64,000 nucleotides of DNA from Escherichia phage ManiMatter_Bas94, in sequence record PQ850617.1; one strand, given 5' to 3'. A program made the position numbers and the translations under genes. This document shows positions 37,580 through 54,018 of this stretch, one piece after another (the first letter of the stretch is position 1; each line of letters starts with the position of its first letter). The notes below the pieces were generated by a model. That model ran no database searches, was not told where the DNA came from, and saw only the letters and a list, made by a program, of their open reading frames with translations.

Positions 37580-38878
37580 TTAGTTATTTGTTTCTATGTC
37601 AAAAGAGAATCCACGACCCGCTTCATCGGCAAACCGAACTGTATGGGTTTGAGGCTCTAATACTTCAGGGTTGTTAGCAATAAAGCGATCAGCGAGACTA
37701 CGACTGACAGTCTCAGCTAACTCTCCATGAGAAGGGATATCAAGATCACCAGCAGCAAAACCCTGACCAGAGAACTGACGTGCGCTAACAGTTAAACCAT
37801 TTGGTCGACCATTAGAACGTCTAGACAACCACTGCTCAAATGAATCACTAGTAACACCAAGAGCCTCTTCAAAAGATGTTCTACGAGTAGGGCTTACTCT
37901 TCGTGACTCTTGTGCTCGACGCATTGCAGGGGCTACAAACACCCCTTCAATTGCATTGTGTCGGTTAGGTTCGTCTTCTCGACCAAGCAGATCACCGCCT
38001 GTGTTAGTCGTTAAGTTTGTTAACCCTTCAGACCAATACGCACGAATCTGGCTAGAGCCATAAATGCTTGACATTAACTGAATCTCTTCATAAGGTATAT
38101 CAAAGAATCGACTCATATCTCGGTTAACACAATACTGAGCACTTGTTGTATCCTCAATAAGAGCAACCTGACCCCGTTCGTTGACCAGATGACTAACCGG
38201 CTGAGGTGTGGGAAGGTGTCGAGTTTGGGCCATGTATTGATATGCAGCTGCTGGAGAGGAAAATCTCAACACTTGCGAGTTAGGCCACTTCTTGTGAACA
38301 TACCTGATTTCACGACTAGAAACAACCACTGGACAAGGGGCGGTCATAGCCAAGTATCCATGAGGGGTCATGAATAAGTTATCAAGAGTCATCGCACCAC
38401 GGCACATCATAGGAAAATTATCCAATACCTCTTCAATAGAAGTAGGATAATTAAACATGAATTGGATACGAACACCATTCCACTGAAACTCAATAATATC
38501 AGTGAATGTTAATTGAGAACCCCCAGCATATGGCTCATCTGTAGCTTCAACAAGAAGAGATGAATACTCAATATCTTGTGATTCAAGCCATTCCTTCACA
38601 TTGCTTTCAATCTCCCGTCCAAGCATTTGCCACTGCTCGGCTGGGATAAAGGTATTTCGAGTTCTTGGTGTTTGTCCTCTGACAATAAAGATATCAATGT
38701 CATGTGGAGCTATGTTATTAAGAACAGCATCACGAATAGCTCCACCAGTAATGATAGGGCAAATACCATCTGGAATCAAGTTGTTGTTAATCAACTGTTC
38801 AATGAAGTGACGACCAACAGTGATATCAGGTTGTTGAGCAACCTTATCTTCAATTCGGTTAATCGGGATAACAATCAT
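37580..38878 (-). CDS. Nucleotidyltransferase with CCA-adding/poly(A) polymerase-type head, Ser/Arg-rich C-terminus
   Basis: PIITGGAIRDAVLNNIAPHDIDIFIV (GGxxRD...DxD); likely start at Met 38878 just after exo stop. Confidence 0.5.
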   Translation of the reverse strand: MIVIPINRIEDKVAQQPDITVGRHFIEQLINNNLIPDGICPIITGGAIRDAVLNNIAPHDIDIFIVRGQTPRTRNTFIPAEQWQMLGREIESNVKEWLESQDIEYSSLLVEATDEPYAGGSQLTFTDIIEFQWNGVRIQFMFNYPTSIEEVLDNFPMMCRGAMTLDNLFMTPHGYLAMTAPCPVVVSSREIRYVHKKWPNSQVLRFSSPAAAYQYMAQTRHLPTPQPVSHLVNERGQVALIEDTTSAQYCVNRDMSRFFDIPYEEIQLMSSIYGSSQIRAYWSEGLTNLTTNTGGDLLGREDEPNRHNAIEGVFVAPAMRRAQESRRVSPTRRTSFEEALGVTSDSFEQWLSRRSNGRPNGLTVSARQFSGQGFAAGDLDIPSHGELAETVSRSLADRFIANNPEVLEPQTHTVRFADEAGRGFSFDIETNN

Positions 38879-38879
38879 T

Positions 38880-48841: not shown

Positions 48842-49805
48842 TGTAATACTCCACTAGTTCAGAAAAGAGAGATGAGATTGTGTTACCGATTTCTTCAGGA
48901 TTAAGACCAGAATCTATTCCAGTACGCTGAATTATTCGTGCTGTAAAGTTTTGTACTGTAATGTTTTCCAACTTATTGTCTATTGCTTCACGTTTGTGAC
49001 CATAACAGTTGGACCAGAGTTTTAACCACTCTGACATTGTTTCATACTCATCCGGATCTTGATCTTTAGCACGAGCAAATCTTCGTAAGACATCTGTGTT
49101 GTGGTTACGAACATAACCATTCTCGTTGTCACCAACACCGAAGGGGTTTTGAACCCATACTTGCTTCGTGTATTCATCAGAGTCAACAACCAAAGGAAGG
49201 AATGCTGCTGCTGACATATTGTTGTCAATAACAACAGACGTGCTTTCACTACTCCCATTGGAAGCTCCTCGTTGAGACCACCTACCAAAGAAGTCACGAC
49301 CCAACCCAGCTAACAATAGAGCGATGCCAATGCGTTTACGCTTCAGCCACTCTTCCCTGTCTTCAATTCCTTCTGCTAGGAAATCCATTCCACGATACTG
49401 CCCTTCCAAAATGCTACGGAAGAGCATAAGTCCTGTGAAGATTTGATCTGCTGGATGCTCACGGAGGTTGACAGCTACGCTATTCGCTGAAGTGATTGTG
49501 AATACATCGCGATAGCAAGACATGGAGTTCATAATATCTGCTGTTTCAACCAAGTTCTTTTCAATATAAGATGCATCATGACCGTGAAAAGAGTGAGTCC
49601 AGTAATTCAGCATCTCCAGTTGCAAGTTGATATCACGGTTGAAGCGTCTATAACGCCCCTCTTCCATGATAACTTCGCCATTAATATCGCTTACGCATTG
49701 GCCTTGCATGTAGTTGTGAATACCGAAGCACCCACGACCTAAGAACTTCTGTTCCCCTAAATCTTGTTGAAGATTCAGAGGTACGATCGTTGTGGAGATT
49801 GACAT
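48834..49805 (-). CDS. Hypothetical protein
   Basis: 323-aa ORF. Confidence 0.4.
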   Translation of the reverse strand: MSISTTIVPLNLQQDLGEQKFLGRGCFGIHNYMQGQCVSDINGEVIMEEGRYRRFNRDINLQLEMLNYWTHSFHGHDASYIEKNLVETADIMNSMSCYRDVFTITSANSVAVNLREHPADQIFTGLMLFRSILEGQYRGMDFLAEGIEDREEWLKRKRIGIALLLAGLGRDFFGRWSQRGASNGSSESTSVVIDNNMSAAAFLPLVVDSDEYTKQVWVQNPFGVGDNENGYVRNHNTDVLRRFARAKDQDPDEYETMSEWLKLWSNCYGHKREAIDNKLENITVQNFTARIIQRTGIDSGLNPEEIGNTISSLFSELVEYYND

Positions 49806-49815
49806 AACTAACCTT

Positions 49816-51012
49816 TTATTTTCCTAAAAATAATCCGCTCATAATACCATCCCACTCAGAGGATGGGATCACTGAATACTCCGAACTTTGGTCCAGAGTT
49901 CCACTACTAAATCGCTGAACAATGTTATAGATGTTGAACAGGTCTTTAGCCTCAGTACGGATACCGTAGACTAATTTATCAGATGTTCTTTCATCTTTAG
50001 ATACCCGACGAGCAAAATTAACCAGAAGGTTGTCACATTTAAGCGTTTCTGACCCACTCTCTACCAAATCAGGGTGCATCACAGGCAAGAACATCGAGTT
50101 ATTGACTCGCAACTCTGCTGTTTCGTCATTCTCATAATGAATCCACTTAAAGTCTTCATCACGGAAGTGACCACAACCATCTCTGTACGACTGCTGACGC
50201 CAAGGCACTTGAAATGCTTCAGCGTATTTATCAGCCATGCCGACTGTAAACAGCGACGCTGGGAAGATACAAGCATCCCAATCATTACCAACCAGAGTTG
50301 CTTTAGTTTCCCCCAAGAGGTTAGTGTAAGTGCTAACCATTCGGGAGTAAATGTAAGCCTGAAGAATTGTCCAGCCTTCAATCAACCATTTATGAAGGAA
50401 GGTTTCAACTTGACTCTCTTCGTCTTCGCAATAGAAGGTTCGGTCTAGCATTAAATAGAACAGACAACGATCAGCAGGGATGTTCTCAGTTGCTACACCC
50501 ATAAAACCTTTCTCGTGCCAGCGTAAACAGGAGGGACGATCTTTGTCCACAAATGCTTCCATAGCTTCCAGTACAGCACGAGGTGAGGTTTGGTATTCAG
50601 GGTTTTTACTATTCCAACGATCAATGTTGTTCTTAGGAGGTGTGTCTTCATCTTCATACGAACACCAACTTAAAGCTTCGGATACATGCTCTGCGTCATG
50701 CCAACGTCTAAAACCTAACATCTTCATGTGAGTTCCGGAGTTCCAGATATGCTTGATTTTACACATATCCATCTCTCGGCTTAACAGGAACTCTTCCCCA
50801 TCAGCACTACGAACGTTAGCTTCTTCATGCCACACTCGAACGTGCATATTCCACCCATGAGTTGCCTCATACATATTAGGGTCGAAGTATTCATATTCGT
50901 CGTCATCTTCATCAACGCCACCATTATAGTTGCGAAGCTGAAGGAATCCATAACAAGGAGGGTTAACCGTTAAAACATTACCTTCAGTATCTTCTAATGT
51001 TACTGGAAACAT
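49816..51012 (-). CDS. Hypothetical protein
   Basis: 398-aa ORF. Confidence 0.4.
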   Translation of the reverse strand: MFPVTLEDTEGNVLTVNPPCYGFLQLRNYNGGVDEDDDEYEYFDPNMYEATHGWNMHVRVWHEEANVRSADGEEFLLSREMDMCKIKHIWNSGTHMKMLGFRRWHDAEHVSEALSWCSYEDEDTPPKNNIDRWNSKNPEYQTSPRAVLEAMEAFVDKDRPSCLRWHEKGFMGVATENIPADRCLFYLMLDRTFYCEDEESQVETFLHKWLIEGWTILQAYIYSRMVSTYTNLLGETKATLVGNDWDACIFPASLFTVGMADKYAEAFQVPWRQQSYRDGCGHFRDEDFKWIHYENDETAELRVNNSMFLPVMHPDLVESGSETLKCDNLLVNFARRVSKDERTSDKLVYGIRTEAKDLFNIYNIVQRFSSGTLDQSSEYSVIPSSEWDGIMSGLFLGK

Positions 51013-53093: not shown

Positions 53094-53381
53094 TTAATAT
53101 ACTAATCCGTGTAAGAGAAACACTCTATTAGTTAACTCTGCTTTAGCTCTGTAATAAGCCTTAGAACCTAACAGGCGGCTCTTAACAAAGAACTTGATGT
53201 CATTGCTTACGTCTTGTATTAAACGCTCCTGTACAGCTTCTGAGGAGCTATTAATTGAATCAATTAACACCTTTGTAGATGTGTAATTCACATCACCACT
53301 CCTTACCGGTTGTAGTTGTAGAGCCACCACACCACTGTGCATCAGATAAGGTTTTAGTCTCCTCATCCATTGCTGCACCAT
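53094..53381 (-). CDS. Hypothetical protein
   Basis: 95-aa ORF. Confidence 0.35.
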   Translation of the reverse strand: MVQQWMRRLKPYLMHSGVVALQLQPVRSGDVNYTSTKVLIDSINSSSEAVQERLIQDVSNDIKFFVKSRLLGSKAYYRAKAELTNRVFLLHGLVY

Positions 53382-53574
53382 TCATGCATGAGATACCATT
53401 GTAACGCATATCAATTTCGCCAGAAGGAACCTTCTCACCTTTATGCCAGCGAGATACACAAATACCTTCCACTGCTACTGCACACCATCCATCAGGACGG
53501 CTCTGTACGCAGCCTGTAAGGGCCACACAGACAATGAAGATACAGATTAAGGATATTACACCACTCCAACTCAT
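53293..53574 (-). CDS. Cys-rich lipoprotein candidate
   Basis: From internal Met: MSWSGVISLICIFIVCVALTGC with lipobox-like LTGC. Confidence 0.35.
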   Translation of the reverse strand: MSWSGVISLICIFIVCVALTGCVQSRPDGWCAVAVEGICVSRWHKGEKVPSGEIDMRYNGISCMNGAAMDEETKTLSDAQWCGGSTTTTGKEW

Positions 53575-53597
53575 AACACACCTCCAAGAGCTTCTAG

Positions 53598-53676
53598 TGA
53601 GGATGACAGGATTTGAACCTGCATACTCCAATTACTTCTTTAACGACCGCTTAGAAGGCGGGGAAGATACATCCTC
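53598..53676 (-). other. tRNA-like element (perfect acceptor stem and T-arm, non-canonical body)
   Basis: Minus strand GAGGATG...GCAGG-TTCAAAT-CCTGT-CATCCTC-A; no 5-bp anticodon stem found by hand. Confidence 0.25.
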
Positions 53677-53717: not shown

Positions 53718-53969
53718 TCAAGCACAAGCAGGGAGAGTGATGATTTTATACTTGCCATCAAATTCTCCAAACAAACCTAAGAATGTAGGACTATAAGTAC
53801 CAGTACAAACAAACTCATCAAACAGTTCGTTATAGCTAGGCTTAATCTTCCAAGCCCATACATAACCCATCTTGTCAATTGCAATGTAACGAGTGTTTAG
53901 AGGAACAGTCATCATCACACCATCAACTTCGACCACTTTAGTGATTGGTGCAGCTTGGAAGTTTTTCAT
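53718..53969 (-). CDS. Hypothetical protein
   Basis: 83-aa ORF. Confidence 0.35.
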   Translation of the reverse strand: MKNFQAAPITKVVEVDGVMMTVPLNTRYIAIDKMGYVWAWKIKPSYNELFDEFVCTGTYSPTFLGLFGEFDGKYKIITLPACA

Positions 53970-53993
53970 ACTTTACCTTTAATTAAAACAACA

Positions 53994-54018
53994 AAGGCCA
54001 CCCAATCGGGCAGCCTTT
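53994..54018 (-). terminator. Rho-independent terminator (minus strand)
   Basis: RNA hairpin AGGCUGCCC-GAUU-GGGUGGCCU then U-rich; near-identical to hairpin at 31501-31532. Confidence 0.5.

What the first reader, a model, noticed from the sequence alone, without database searches (positions are those of the whole stretch)
53598..53676. tRNA-like element with perfect acceptor stem and T-arm but a non-canonical body
The minus strand has a 7-bp acceptor stem (GAGGATG/CATCCTC), discriminator A and a canonical T-arm (GCAGG-TTCAAAT-CCTGT), but the intervening 47 nt do not fold into standard D and anticodon arms by hand (best local hairpin is CCGC-CTTCTAA-GCGG). It could be a degenerate tRNA, a tRNA with an unusual or inserted body, or a tRNA-mimicking element. 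Its presence alongside a CCA-type nucleotidyltransferase is suggestive.
Basis: seen in the sequence. Interest (0 to 1): 0.4.

Follow-up and report, generated by a model that had tools for sequence, protein, structure and literature searches.

The report
Rewired non-cloverleaf arginine tRNA in phages
The odd tRNA-like element is one member of a large, conserved, phage-only family of arginine (and a few isoleucine) tRNA genes whose D-loop and anticodon arm have swapped places, which matters because bacterial-type tRNAs were thought always to be cloverleaves.

Summary
In detail: window 53598-53676 (- strand) has a 7-bp acceptor stem, discriminator A, a canonical T-arm and a CCGC-CUUCUAA-GCGG hairpin, but no D-arm. 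ARAGORN misses it. The Rfam tRNA model just passes (33.4 bits against a threshold of 29).

It is not a decayed tRNA. I found 82 distinct relatives in 114 phage loci (Kuravirus, phi92-like, T5-like, jumbo and Streptomyces phages). Almost all are 79 nt and all share one covarying structure:
- acceptor stem, then UAU;
- a 3-4 bp helix X that encloses the anticodon arm plus a 7-nt bulge;
- a 12-nt strand UAAyyGGAGUAU that reads like a D-loop;
- a T-arm.

The evidence that it decodes:
- All anticodons are Arg (UCU, UCG, CCU, plus ACG and GCG in divergent copies) or Ile (UAU, GAU).
- The base after GG is A in Arg members and U in Ile members, matching the A20 and U20 identity elements.
- No locus carries a canonical tRNA with the same anticodon.
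- Sister phages such as LAMP carry a canonical tRNA-Arg(UCU) in exactly this slot.
- It is absent from E. coli genomes and nearly absent from 185,579 prokaryotic genomes.

Most likely it is a working AGA-decoding tRNA-Arg with a rewired core. Expression, charging and the reason for the rewiring are untested. I found no published description.

The parts
53598..53676 (-). Whole gene: 79-nt non-canonical tRNA-Arg(UCU). No CCA is encoded; the next bases are CTA.
   Evidence: Rfam tRNA model 33.4 bits. Family covariance model R1 96.9 bits. Sequence read.
53670..53676 (-). Acceptor stem 5' strand, GAGGAUG (element positions 1-7).
   Evidence: Pairs perfectly with 53599-53605. All 7 pairs covary in the family and 99.4% of cells are paired.
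53667..53669 (-). Junction J1, UAU (positions 8-10). U8 and A9 are as in canonical tRNA.
   Evidence: Invariant in alignment A1, which was collected with a pattern that did not constrain this region. The later tallies of 76 and 82 sequences required A9 U10 or UAU in the search expression and so do not test it.
53663..53666 (-). Helix X 5' strand, CUUC (positions 11-14). It runs straight into the anticodon stem.
   Evidence: Pairs with GAAG at 53635-53638. Family pair 12:41 is UA44/GC20/AU12/CG1 and pair 13:40 is CG59/GC9/UA9, with no unpaired cells. Energy-based folding does not predict this helix.
53646..53662 (-). Anticodon arm: stem CCCGC/GCGGU (4 bp plus a C.U at the top) and loop CUUCUAA. 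The anticodon UCU is at 53653-53655.
   Evidence: All five stem pairs covary. The loop has U33 and A37. The C.U at 15:31 is shared by 23 of 77 members.
53639..53645 (-). Conserved 7-nt bulge, CGUUAAA (positions 32-38), between the anticodon stem and the helix X 3' strand.
   Evidence: The consensus is C-[GAU]-U-[UC]-A-A-[ACU] in 76 of 76 members. Its role is unknown.
53635..53638 (-). Helix X 3' strand, GAAG (positions 39-42).
   Evidence: Covaries with positions 11-14.
53623..53634 (-). D-loop-like strand J2, UAAUUGGAGUAU (positions 43-54). Proposed equivalents: A14, R15, Y16, Y17, G18, G19, A20 (at 53627), A21 and Y48.
   Evidence: GGAGUAU stays conserved in members collected with a search pattern that did not constrain it. 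The base after GG is A in 76 of 77 Arg members and U in 5 of 5 Ile(UAU) members. This matches the bacterial identity elements A20 (Arg) and U20 (Ile) in PMC9976931 Table 1.
53606..53622 (-). T-arm: GCAGG, UUCAAAU, CCUGU (positions 55-71).
   Evidence: The T-stem covaries in members found with the 5'-half pattern.
53598..53605 (-). Acceptor stem 3' strand CAUCCUC (53599-53605) plus discriminator A (53598).
   Evidence: The discriminator is A, G or U in 76 of 77 Arg members, within the bacterial Arg identity set.
53293..53574 (-). Downstream flanking gene: phage lipoprotein, with RBS GGAGG at 53581-53585. It defines the conserved tRNA slot.
   Evidence: Pfam Phage_lipoprotein, E=1.1e-35. The homologous gene follows the canonical tRNA-Arg in LAMP and SGF2.
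53718..53969 (-). Upstream flanking gene: 83-aa hypothetical protein. It defines the other side of the slot.
   Evidence: Same position and 252-nt length as LAMP gp108, and its 3' end aligns with the corresponding LAMP sequence. PHROG 1972, function unknown.

Best explanation
The element is a gene for a functional but structurally non-canonical elongator tRNA-Arg with anticodon UCU, which reads AGA and probably AGG. It belongs to a phage-restricted family with a rewired core.

**Architecture.** After U8-A9, a short helix X corresponds in sequence to a D-stem (C11-U12-C13 / G-A-G in most members). Instead of closing a D-loop, helix X encloses the anticodon arm and a conserved 7-nt bulge. The D-loop sequence (A14 R15 Y Y G18 G19 A20 .. 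A21) follows the 3' strand of helix X and joins the T-stem through a U at the place of Y48. In effect the D-loop and the anticodon arm have exchanged places.

**Inferred consequences.**
- Helix X stacks on the anticodon stem, giving 9 contiguous pairs against about 10 layers in a normal D/anticodon arm.
- The GG still docks on the T-loop, so an L-like shape and the ArgRS determinants A20, C35, U36 and A73 are kept.

**Inferred life cycle in the window phage.**
- It is transcribed with the minus-strand genes around it.
- RNase P cuts the 5' end, using the intact acceptor/T-arm.
- The 3' end is trimmed and given CCA by a CCA-adding enzyme, because CCA is not encoded here.
- Host ArgRS charges it, and it is used on host ribosomes for the phage's many AGA codons.

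**Shown:** the family, the secondary structure, the restriction of anticodons to Arg and Ile, the correlation of position 20 with amino-acid identity, the complementarity with canonical tRNA sets, and the phage restriction.

**Inferred:** expression, processing, charging, decoding and the three-dimensional fold.

**Unknown:** why the core is rewired.
For: 1. **Family and structure.**
   - There are 82 distinct sequences in 114 loci. Among the 76 tallied, 66 are exactly 79 nt.
   - On a 77-sequence alignment, 94.6% of pair cells are paired, against 64% in shuffles and 33-45% when partners are slid. Compensatory changes occur in 19 of 21 pairs. An independent MAFFT alignment gives the same picture.
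   - The two variable helix X pairs are never broken, with 4 and 3 pair types.
2. **Discrete family.** Full-length members, including the Ile ones, score 74-102 bits with model R1. Four divergent copies score 46-64 bits and canonical tRNAs score 42 or less.
3. **Anticodons.** The searches left the anticodon free, yet only Arg and Ile anticodons appear: UCU (74), UCG (2), CCU (1), UAU-Ile (5), plus divergent copies with ACG, GCG and GAU.
4. **Identity elements.**
   - The base after GG is A in 76 of 77 Arg members and U in 5 of 5 Ile(UAU) members. The 4 divergent copies follow the same rule.
   - Bacterial Arg identity is A20, C35, U/G36 and A/G/U73. Bacterial Ile identity includes U20 and A73 (PMC9976931 Table 1).
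   - All 5 Ile members have discriminator A.
5. **Complementarity with canonical tRNA sets.**
   - In 55 loci (32 with at least 10 canonical tRNAs), none has a canonical tRNA-Arg with the element's anticodon, while 21 have other Arg isoacceptors.
   - Where a canonical Arg(UCU) exists, the element carries UCG, CCU or UAU instead.
   - One locus has two copies, with anticodons UCG and UCU.
   - The complete phi92 genome has 15 canonical tRNAs, none for Arg, plus this element.
6. **Same slot in sister phages.** LAMP and SGF2 carry a canonical tRNA-Arg(UCU) between the same two flanking genes. The flanks align and the interior does not.
7. **Gene-like features.**
   - CCA is encoded in 52 of 76 members.
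   - Copies sit inside tRNA arrays.
   - The phi92 copy has an 11-of-12 sigma-70 promoter ending 11 nt upstream.
8. **Codon demand.** AGA makes up 10.7 per 1000 codons and 19.7% of Arg codons in the window's long ORFs. AGA is rare in E. coli (my own knowledge).
9. **Plausibility.** E. coli EF-Tu and ribosomes accept an engineered D-arm-less tRNA without adaptation (PMC11551756).
Against: - There are no expression, processing or aminoacylation data for any member.
- Nearest-neighbour folding does not recover helix X (1 of 66 members). The proposed structure lies 1.6 kcal/mol above the minimum free energy for this copy and a median of 3.25 kcal/mol above it for the family. Helix X therefore rests on covariation alone.
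- In the window copy, the helix X 3' strand (AGAAG) can alternatively pair with the anticodon loop (CUUCU).
- The tertiary mapping cannot be tested by covariation, because the nucleotides involved are invariant.
- Parts of the observed conservation reflect how members were collected. Each search pattern fixed one part of the molecule. I offset this by using three patterns that fixed different parts.
- Most loci are partial contigs, so a canonical tRNA with the same anticodon could lie outside them.
- No promoter-like site was found next to the window copy.
Confidence: 0.75

Rival explanations
1. It is a tRNA mimic that is not used for decoding. It could be a decoy that soaks up a tRNA-Arg/Ile-directed nuclease or a modification enzyme, or a regulator or sequestering ligand of ArgRS. 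On this view it keeps the anticodon loop, the A20-like base and the acceptor/T minihelix only so that a protein can recognise it.
For: - The architecture is non-canonical, and ARAGORN rejects every member.
- A 7-nt bulge with no counterpart in tRNA is highly conserved.
- Nucleases that target tRNA-Arg exist: colicin D (reference 191 in PMC7824862) and retron Eco2, which cuts tRNA-Arg among others (PMC12916289).
- No charging data exist.
Against: - A decoy should accompany the tRNA it protects. Instead the element never co-occurs with a canonical phage tRNA of the same anticodon, and it takes the place of the canonical tRNA-Arg(UCU) in the Kuravirus slot.
- The anticodon varies among Arg isoacceptors and Ile in step with what the local tRNA set lacks.
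- CCA is encoded in two thirds of members.
- The discriminator and position 20 follow synthetase identity rules.
Confidence: 0.13
2. It is a decaying pseudogene of the canonical Kuravirus tRNA-Arg(UCU), or a chance tRNA-like fold.
For: - It has no D-arm and gets no ARAGORN call.
- Its Rfam score is low (33.4 bits, against 48-66 for canonical phage tRNAs).
- It lacks an encoded CCA, whereas LAMP's canonical gene has one.
Against: - The same 79-nt architecture occurs in 82 distinct sequences from unrelated phage lineages, with compensatory changes in 19 of 21 pairs.
- The window copy scores 96.9 bits, near the top of the family.
- Its acceptor stem is entirely different from LAMP's yet perfectly paired. 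This is replacement, not decay.
Confidence: 0.03
3. It is a tRNA gene fragment left by integration (an attP/attR-type partial tRNA), or an intron-containing or permuted tRNA gene that is processed into a canonical cloverleaf.
For: tRNA fragments from mobile-element integration are a common source of odd tRNA calls (PMC9897764). HNH endonuclease genes lie next to the element in Bas93 and Roth37.
Against: - Both acceptor strands are present and covary.
- The phages that carry it are mostly of virulent types, and the element has no match in 5,426 complete E. coli genomes.
- No excision of a contiguous segment from the 79 nt yields a D-arm, because the D-loop-like strand lies 3' of both helix X strands.
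- Length is fixed at 78-81 nt.
Confidence: 0.02

Closest known systems
Canonical phage-encoded tRNA-Arg(UCU), for example Escherichia phage LAMP phiL_107 and Shigella phage SGF2
   Same: It occupies the same genomic slot in sister Kuraviruses and has the same anticodon loop, CUUCUAA. The T-arm is very similar (ACAGG-UUCAAAU-CCUGU). Its D-loop sequence AAUGGAUA resembles the element's AAUUGGAGUA. The presumed job is the same, supplying an AGA decoder.
   Different: It has a normal D-arm and a 5-nt variable loop, encodes CCA, and is called by ARAGORN. The element has the D-loop moved to the 3' side of the D-stem-like helix and the anticodon arm nested inside that helix. Its acceptor stem is unrelated.
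[quoted passage not shown]
   Same: They have no conventional D-arm, the acceptor stem connects to the anticodon arm through a short linker, and they decode AGN codons. The A. suum species even has a UCU anticodon (PMC7609411).
   Different: The mitochondrial species are shortened. [quoted passage not shown] They depend on adapted partner proteins. That they lack a G18G19 elbow contact is my own knowledge. The phage element is full length (79 nt), keeps a canonical T-arm and a GG-containing D-loop-like strand, and must work with ordinary bacterial machinery.
Engineered 'mini HisT' D-arm-less tRNA in E. coli (Edelmann et al. 2024, PMC11551756)
   Same: It is a non-cloverleaf adaptor in a bacterial translation system, and it shows that EF-Tu and the ribosome tolerate loss of the D-arm.
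   Different: It is artificial and simply deletes the D-arm. It needed a pnp mutation to be stable. The phage family is natural, conserved and rewired rather than truncated.
Other natural non-canonical tRNAs (tRNA-Sec, tRNA-Pyl, allo-tRNAs) and permuted or split archaeal/algal tRNA genes
   Same: These are departures from the standard cloverleaf that are still used in translation (PMC7609411).
   Different: They keep the four-arm order: D-arm, then anticodon arm, then variable region, then T-arm. Permuted genes are rearranged at the gene level and are processed back to a normal cloverleaf. Here the mature molecule itself would have the arms in a different order.

Membership tests
tRNA (Rfam RF00005; canonical cloverleaf) | 7-bp acceptor stem plus an unpaired discriminator | tested here: met
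   GAGGAUG/CAUCCUC plus A. The stem covaries in the family.
tRNA (Rfam RF00005; canonical cloverleaf) | T-arm: 5-bp stem and 7-nt loop of the form UUCRANY | tested here: met
   GCAGG-UUCAAAU-CCUGU. The stem covaries.
tRNA (Rfam RF00005; canonical cloverleaf) | Anticodon arm: 5-bp stem and 7-nt loop with U33 and a purine at 37 | tested here: met
   Loop CUUCUAA. The stem has 4 bp plus a C.U in this copy and 5 bp in most members.
tRNA (Rfam RF00005; canonical cloverleaf) | D-arm: a 3-4 bp stem (10-13/22-25) closing a loop that holds G18 G19, placed between the acceptor stem and the anticodon arm | tested here: not met
   The only helix in that region (positions 11-14/39-42) closes the anticodon arm, not a GG loop. 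The GG strand lies 3' of it. The Rfam alignment deletes the D-arm and ARAGORN makes no call.
tRNA (Rfam RF00005; canonical cloverleaf) | Score at or above the family gathering threshold | tested here: met
   33.4 bits against 29. This is much lower than canonical phage tRNAs, which score 48-66 bits.
tRNA (Rfam RF00005; canonical cloverleaf) | 3'-CCA end, aminoacylation and use on the ribosome | not testable with these tools
   CCA is not encoded in the window copy (the next bases are CTA) but is encoded in 52 of 76 relatives. No RNA or charging data are available.
Bacterial tRNA-Arg (ArgRS identity set: A20, C35, U/G36, A/G/U73; PMC9976931 Table 1) | C35 and U/G36 in the anticodon, and discriminator A, G or U | tested here: met
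   The anticodon is UCU and the discriminator is A. Across the family, C35 is present in all Arg members and the discriminator is A, G or U in 76 of 77.
Bacterial tRNA-Arg (ArgRS identity set: A20, C35, U/G36, A/G/U73; PMC9976931 Table 1) | A20 in the D-loop variable pocket | tested here: inconclusive
   There is an A directly after GG (window 53627). It is A in 76 of 77 Arg members and U in 5 of 5 Ile(UAU) members. This fits A20/U20, but its equivalence to position 20 in three dimensions is inferred.
Mitochondrial-type D-arm-less tRNA | D-arm replaced by a short connector, no G18G19/T-loop elbow, shortened molecule, organellar setting | tested here: not met
   The element is 79 nt long, has a full T-arm and keeps a conserved GG strand. 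It is encoded by phages of bacteria.
Other tRNA-like RNAs in Rfam (tmRNA, YrlA, viral TLS, mascRNA and others) | A match to the family's covariance model | tested here: not met
   No Rfam family other than tRNA matches the element, even at E<=10.
tRNA gene fragment at an integration site (att) | Only the 3' part of a tRNA is present, identical to a host tRNA and next to an integrase | tested here: not met
   Both acceptor strands are present and covary. There is no match in 5,426 E. coli genomes.

The most novel reading that the evidence does not exclude
These RNAs are fully functional elongator tRNAs whose D-loop and anticodon arm are transposed. They would be the first natural non-cloverleaf tRNAs to work with ordinary bacterial synthetases, EF-Tu and ribosomes. 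The rewiring would be adaptive: it keeps what ArgRS/IleRS and the ribosome need while hiding the tRNA from host factors that read the normal D-arm/core, such as tRNA-directed defence nucleases, turnover or modification enzymes. That would explain why the design is found only in phages and has spread across unrelated phage lineages.
Probability: 0.25. Interest if true: 0.9.

Novelty: new variant of a known kind. Interest (0 to 1): 0.8.

Why it matters
- **It would challenge a textbook assumption.** The cloverleaf is treated as universal outside animal mitochondria, and a 2024 paper states that all known bacterial tRNAs adopt it (PMC11551756). A conserved, widespread, phage-borne tRNA-Arg/Ile with a different arm order would show that bacterial translation already uses another architecture in nature.
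- **It is directly testable.** Carriers include cultured E. coli phages such as phi92, the BASEL phage Bas93 and several Kuraviruses. Sister Kuraviruses with the canonical gene in the same slot provide a natural isogenic control.
- **It affects annotation.** ARAGORN misses these genes. GenBank records leave them unannotated, or label them 'tRNA-OTHER', 'tRNA-Undet' or even tRNA-Val(aac). Phage tRNA repertoires and codon-supply analyses therefore omit their AGA and AUA decoders.
- **It may be useful.** The scaffold is a candidate natural starting point for orthogonal tRNAs. It is also a probe for which tRNA features synthetases, RNase P, EF-Tu, the ribosome and anti-phage tRNA nucleases really require.

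Tried and rejected
- **ARAGORN** found nothing in the window or at any family member.
- **Single-sequence and family-wide energy folding** do not recover helix X. RNAalifold on the family predicts only the acceptor, anticodon and T stems. I therefore did not use energy as evidence.
- **An alternative pairing of U8-A9-U10 with G51-U52-A53** would make a continuous 12-bp rod. It cannot be tested because all six bases are invariant. One divergent copy (L164:2689-2763) breaks two of the three pairs. I left this unresolved.
- **A cloverleaf with the hairpin as the D-arm** is rejected. The remaining 13-14 nt before the T-stem cannot form an anticodon arm.
- **An intron, a permuted gene or an att fragment** is rejected (see the rival explanations).
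- **Bacterial and archaeal genomes.** A scan of 185,579 species gave 18 pattern hits. Of these, 16 did not match the family model, about what I estimate for chance matches to an 18-base pattern. The other 2 are real members, on 36-kb and 41-kb MAG contigs with tRNA clusters.
- **Pfam and NCBIfam searches for a CCA-adding enzyme** found nothing at default thresholds.
- **Literature.** Seven full-text searches, one of them for the RNA/DNA sequence itself, found no description of this family. The library lacks most subscription journals, so prior description cannot be excluded.
- **Promoter scan.** No promoter-like site was found beside the window copy.
Full report
**1. The observation**

On the minus strand, window 53676-53598 reads:

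GAGGAUG UAU CUUC CCCGC CUUCUAA GCGGU CGUUAAA GAAG UAAUUGGAGUAU GCAGG UUCAAAU CCUGU CAUCCUC A.

- ARAGORN finds no tRNA anywhere in the 64-kb window.
- The Rfam tRNA model hits precisely these coordinates at 33.4 bits (gathering score 29). To do so it deletes the D-arm and inserts 20 nt before the T-arm.
- No other Rfam family matches.
- Folded alone, the RNA gives -21.2 kcal/mol (z = -2.47), but with a body structure that later proved not to be the conserved one.

**2. Genomic setting**

- The window is a Kuravirus-type E. coli podophage. Its closest records are phage LAMP and the BASEL phage Bas93.
- The element lies between an 83-aa ORF (53718-53969) and a phage lipoprotein gene (53293-53574; Pfam E=1e-35).
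- In LAMP and SGF2 the same slot holds an ordinary, ARAGORN-detectable tRNA-Arg(UCU) with encoded CCA.
- An alignment shows that the flanks are homologous while the interior is not. The two genes have unrelated acceptor stems.
- Bas93, 1-6af, 1-6bf and FH3 carry the window's version. TH42 and HC-25922 carry a second version with yet another acceptor stem.
- The genus is therefore polymorphic for a canonical or a non-canonical gene with the same anticodon at one locus.

**3. It is a family**

- BLAST with the 96-nt region found about 144 phage records. They include:
  - phi92-like myophages;
  - Klebsiella and Proteus Mydovirus-like phages;
  - T5-like Klebsiella phages;
  - 350-kb jumbo E. coli and Salmonella phages;
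  - Streptomyces phages.
- Where these copies are annotated at all, the labels are 'tRNA-OTHER', 'tRNA-Undet' or, wrongly, tRNA-Val(aac).
- I ran three IMG/VR pattern scans, each fixing a different part of the molecule: the T-arm side, the 5' half, and the J1/bulge region with the anticodon left free.
- Together with the GenBank loci, these gave 82 distinct sequences in 114 loci. Of the 76 tallied, 66 are exactly 79 nt and the rest are 78-81 nt.
- A covariance model built on the first 32 sequences scores full-length members, including the Ile ones, at 74-102 bits. Four divergent copies score 46-64 bits and canonical tRNAs score 42 or less.

**4. The conserved structure**

On a MAFFT alignment of 32 sequences and on a model-based alignment of 77, the following structure holds:
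- acceptor stem, positions 1-7 with 72-78;
- helix X, positions 11-14 with 39-42;
- anticodon stem, positions 15-19 with 27-31;
- T-stem, positions 55-59 with 67-71.

The supporting numbers:
- 94.5-94.6% of cells are paired, against 64-69% in shuffles and 33-45% when partners are slid by 1-3 columns.
- 16 of 21 pairs (32 sequences) and 19 of 21 pairs (77 sequences) show double changes.
- Helix X is the new feature.
  - C11:G42 is invariant.
  - Pair 12:41 is UA44/GC20/AU12/CG1.
  - Pair 13:40 is CG59/GC9/UA9.
  - No cell in either variable pair is unpaired.
  - Pair 14:39 is mostly A.C or C.A.
- On the 5' side helix X runs directly into the anticodon stem. On the 3' side a near-invariant 7-nt bulge, C-R-U-U-A-A-N, intervenes.
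- After helix X comes a 12-nt single strand, UAA-yy-GGAGUAU, and then the T-stem.
- The GGAGUAU motif stays conserved in the 43 members collected with a pattern that did not include it.

One caution applies. Nearest-neighbour folding does not predict helix X (1 of 66 members). The proposed structure lies a median of 3.25 kcal/mol above the minimum free energy, and 1.6 kcal/mol above it for the window copy. RNAalifold also omits helix X. The helix therefore rests on covariation alone.

**5. Reading the architecture**

- The 12-nt strand matches a tRNA-Arg D-loop base for base. LAMP's canonical gene has AAUGGAUA and the element has AAUUGGAGUA.
- Most members have C11-U12-C13 / G-A-G in helix X, the same D-stem core as in LAMP's canonical gene (GCUC/GAGC).
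- U8-A9 follow the acceptor stem, and a U precedes the T-stem where Y48 normally sits.
- The simplest description is a tRNA in which the D-loop (14-21) and the anticodon arm with its surroundings (26-47) have exchanged places around the 3' strand of the D-stem.
- I infer the following, but cannot show it:
  - helix X stacks on the anticodon stem, giving 9 contiguous pairs against about 10 layers in a normal D/anticodon arm;
  - the GG still docks on the T-loop;
  - U8.A44, A45.U54 and A53 reproduce the U8.A14, R15.Y48 and A21 layers.
- An alternative in which U8-A9-U10 pairs with G51-U52-A53 cannot be excluded, because all of these bases are invariant.

**6. Evidence that it decodes**

(a) Anticodons.
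- The scans left the anticodon unconstrained, yet only Arg and Ile anticodons appear: UCU (74 distinct sequences), UCG (2), CCU (1) and UAU (5).
- Four divergent copies (46-64 bits) have anticodons ACG, UCU and GCG (Arg) and GAU (Ile).

(b) Identity elements.
- The base after GG is A in 76 of 77 Arg members and in all three divergent Arg copies.
- It is U in 5 of 5 Ile(UAU) members and in the divergent Ile(GAU) copy.
- In bacteria, A20 is the main ArgRS determinant, together with C35, U/G36 and A/G/U73. U20 and A73 belong to the Ile set (PMC9976931 Table 1).
- The discriminator is A, G or U in 76 of 77 Arg members and A in 5 of 5 Ile members.

(c) Complementarity with canonical tRNA sets.
- In 55 loci, 32 of them with at least 10 canonical tRNAs, none has a canonical tRNA-Arg with the element's anticodon, while 21 have other Arg isoacceptors.
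- In L011 and L060 a canonical Arg(UCU) is present, and there the element carries UCG or CCU instead.
- L131 carries two copies, with anticodons UCG and UCU.
- Loci with the Ile(UAU) form have canonical Arg(UCU) but no canonical Ile(UAU).
- The complete phi92 genome has 15 canonical tRNAs, none for Arg, plus this element.

(d) Gene-like features.
- CCA is encoded in 52 of 76 members.
- Copies sit inside tRNA arrays.
- The phi92 copy has a TTGACA-17-TATAGT promoter ending 11 nt upstream.

(e) Codon demand. AGA is 10.7 per 1000 codons and 19.7% of Arg codons in the window's long ORFs. AGA is rare in E. coli (my own knowledge).

(f) Feasibility. E. coli EF-Tu and ribosomes accept an engineered D-arm-less tRNA without adaptation (PMC11551756).

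**7. Distribution**

- The family is essentially phage-only.
- A pattern scan of one genome from each of 185,579 bacterial and archaeal species gave two true members. Both are on MAG contigs of 36 kb and 41 kb that carry tRNA clusters.
- The element has no match in 5,426 complete E. coli genomes, prophages included.

**8. Most likely mechanism, and what is not known**

I conclude with about 0.75 confidence that the window element is a working AGA-decoding tRNA-Arg.
- Its 5' end would be cut by RNase P.
- It must receive CCA after transcription, because the gene is followed by CTA.
- Host ArgRS would charge it.

The phage ORF 37583-38959 has a class-II nucleotidyltransferase head-domain signature. 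Nothing here ties it to this RNA.

The reason for the rewiring is unknown. Escape from tRNA-directed nucleases is an attractive idea, since colicin D and retron Eco2 are precedents for attack on tRNA-Arg. It is pure speculation.

The main rival is a non-decoding mimic or decoy (about 0.13). It is disfavoured by the complementarity data but can only be excluded by experiment. Pseudogene, att-fragment and intron explanations are effectively excluded.

**9. Novelty**

- Seven full-text searches found no description of this family. One of them searched for the sequence itself.
- A 2020 review of natural non-canonical tRNAs never mentions phages.
- A 2024 paper states that all known bacterial tRNAs are cloverleaves.
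- The library lacks most subscription journals, so a prior report cannot be ruled out.
- I classify the element as a new variant of a known kind: a tRNA with a new arm order. I score interest at 0.8.

Noticed in passing
L171:3692-3770, L174:2740-2818, L177:1408-1486, L189:5269-5347, L197:9211-9289 (IMG/VR loci): The same rewired scaffold occurs with anticodon UAU (Ile, AUA), with U instead of A after the GG, and with discriminator A. These loci have canonical tRNA-Arg(UCU) but no canonical tRNA-Ile(UAU). The architecture is therefore not specific to Arg.
   Followed up: partly
L164:2689-2763, L079:1232-1310, L160:9061-9137, L189:4121-4197: These are divergent relatives (46-64 bits with model R1). 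They have shorter bulges (3-5 nt), longer or altered D-loop-like strands, and anticodons ACG, UCU and GCG (Arg) and GAU (Ile). They hint at a broader class than the 79-nt core family.
   Followed up: partly
window 37583-38959 (-): A 459-aa ORF matches PHROG 12715 'nucleotidyltransferase'. It has a sub-threshold Pfam PolyA_pol head-domain hit and the motif GGAIRD...DIDIF, typical of class-II CCA-adding enzymes and poly(A) polymerases. Pfam finds nothing at its gathering threshold, and PDB sequences and NCBIfam give no match. Its substrate is unknown.
   Followed up: partly
window about 42560-51010 (-): A phiEco32-type cluster of ATP-grasp-like, glutamine amidotransferase, amidoligase and COOH-NH2 ligase genes, plus three conserved ORFs of unknown function (PHROGs 4877, 13102, 13063).
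   Followed up: no
L165:about 1308-1338 and about 1351-1467 (Kuravirus vB_EcoP_HC-25922): Just downstream of that phage's own rewired tRNA-Arg lie two further odd elements. One is an isolated T-arm-like fragment. The other is a tRNA-like element of about 117 nt, with acceptor GGGCUAG/AUAGUCC, 'UAU' after the acceptor, a long unassigned body, a T-arm and an encoded CCA.
   Followed up: no
L003:2089-2538 (Bas93) and L006:2585-3094 (Roth37): HNH homing-endonuclease genes lie immediately next to the rewired tRNA gene in two unrelated phages. This is a possible vehicle for moving the cassette between genomes.
   Followed up: no
L004:3133-3208 (phi92); also L010:928-997 and 2598-2672, L069:5383-5457: ARAGORN reports 'tRNA-???' with two-base anticodons (tt, gt, ga) for some neighbouring phage tRNAs, for example phi92 tRNA-Lys. 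This implies altered anticodon loops and recalls reports that phage tRNAs evade nucleases through anticodon-loop changes (PMC10264068).
   Followed up: no
L005:2495-2573 (Streptomyces phage Yaboi gene 148): The family member in this GenBank record is annotated as tRNA-Val(aac), apparently by reading AAC out of the conserved CGUUAAC bulge. Its real anticodon loop is CUUCUAA (Arg UCU).
   Followed up: yes
window 53993-54018 (-): A terminator-like hairpin (11 pairs, followed by GUUGUUUUAA) lies upstream of the 83-aa ORF that precedes the tRNA. No sigma-70-like promoter was found between it and the tRNA.
   Followed up: no
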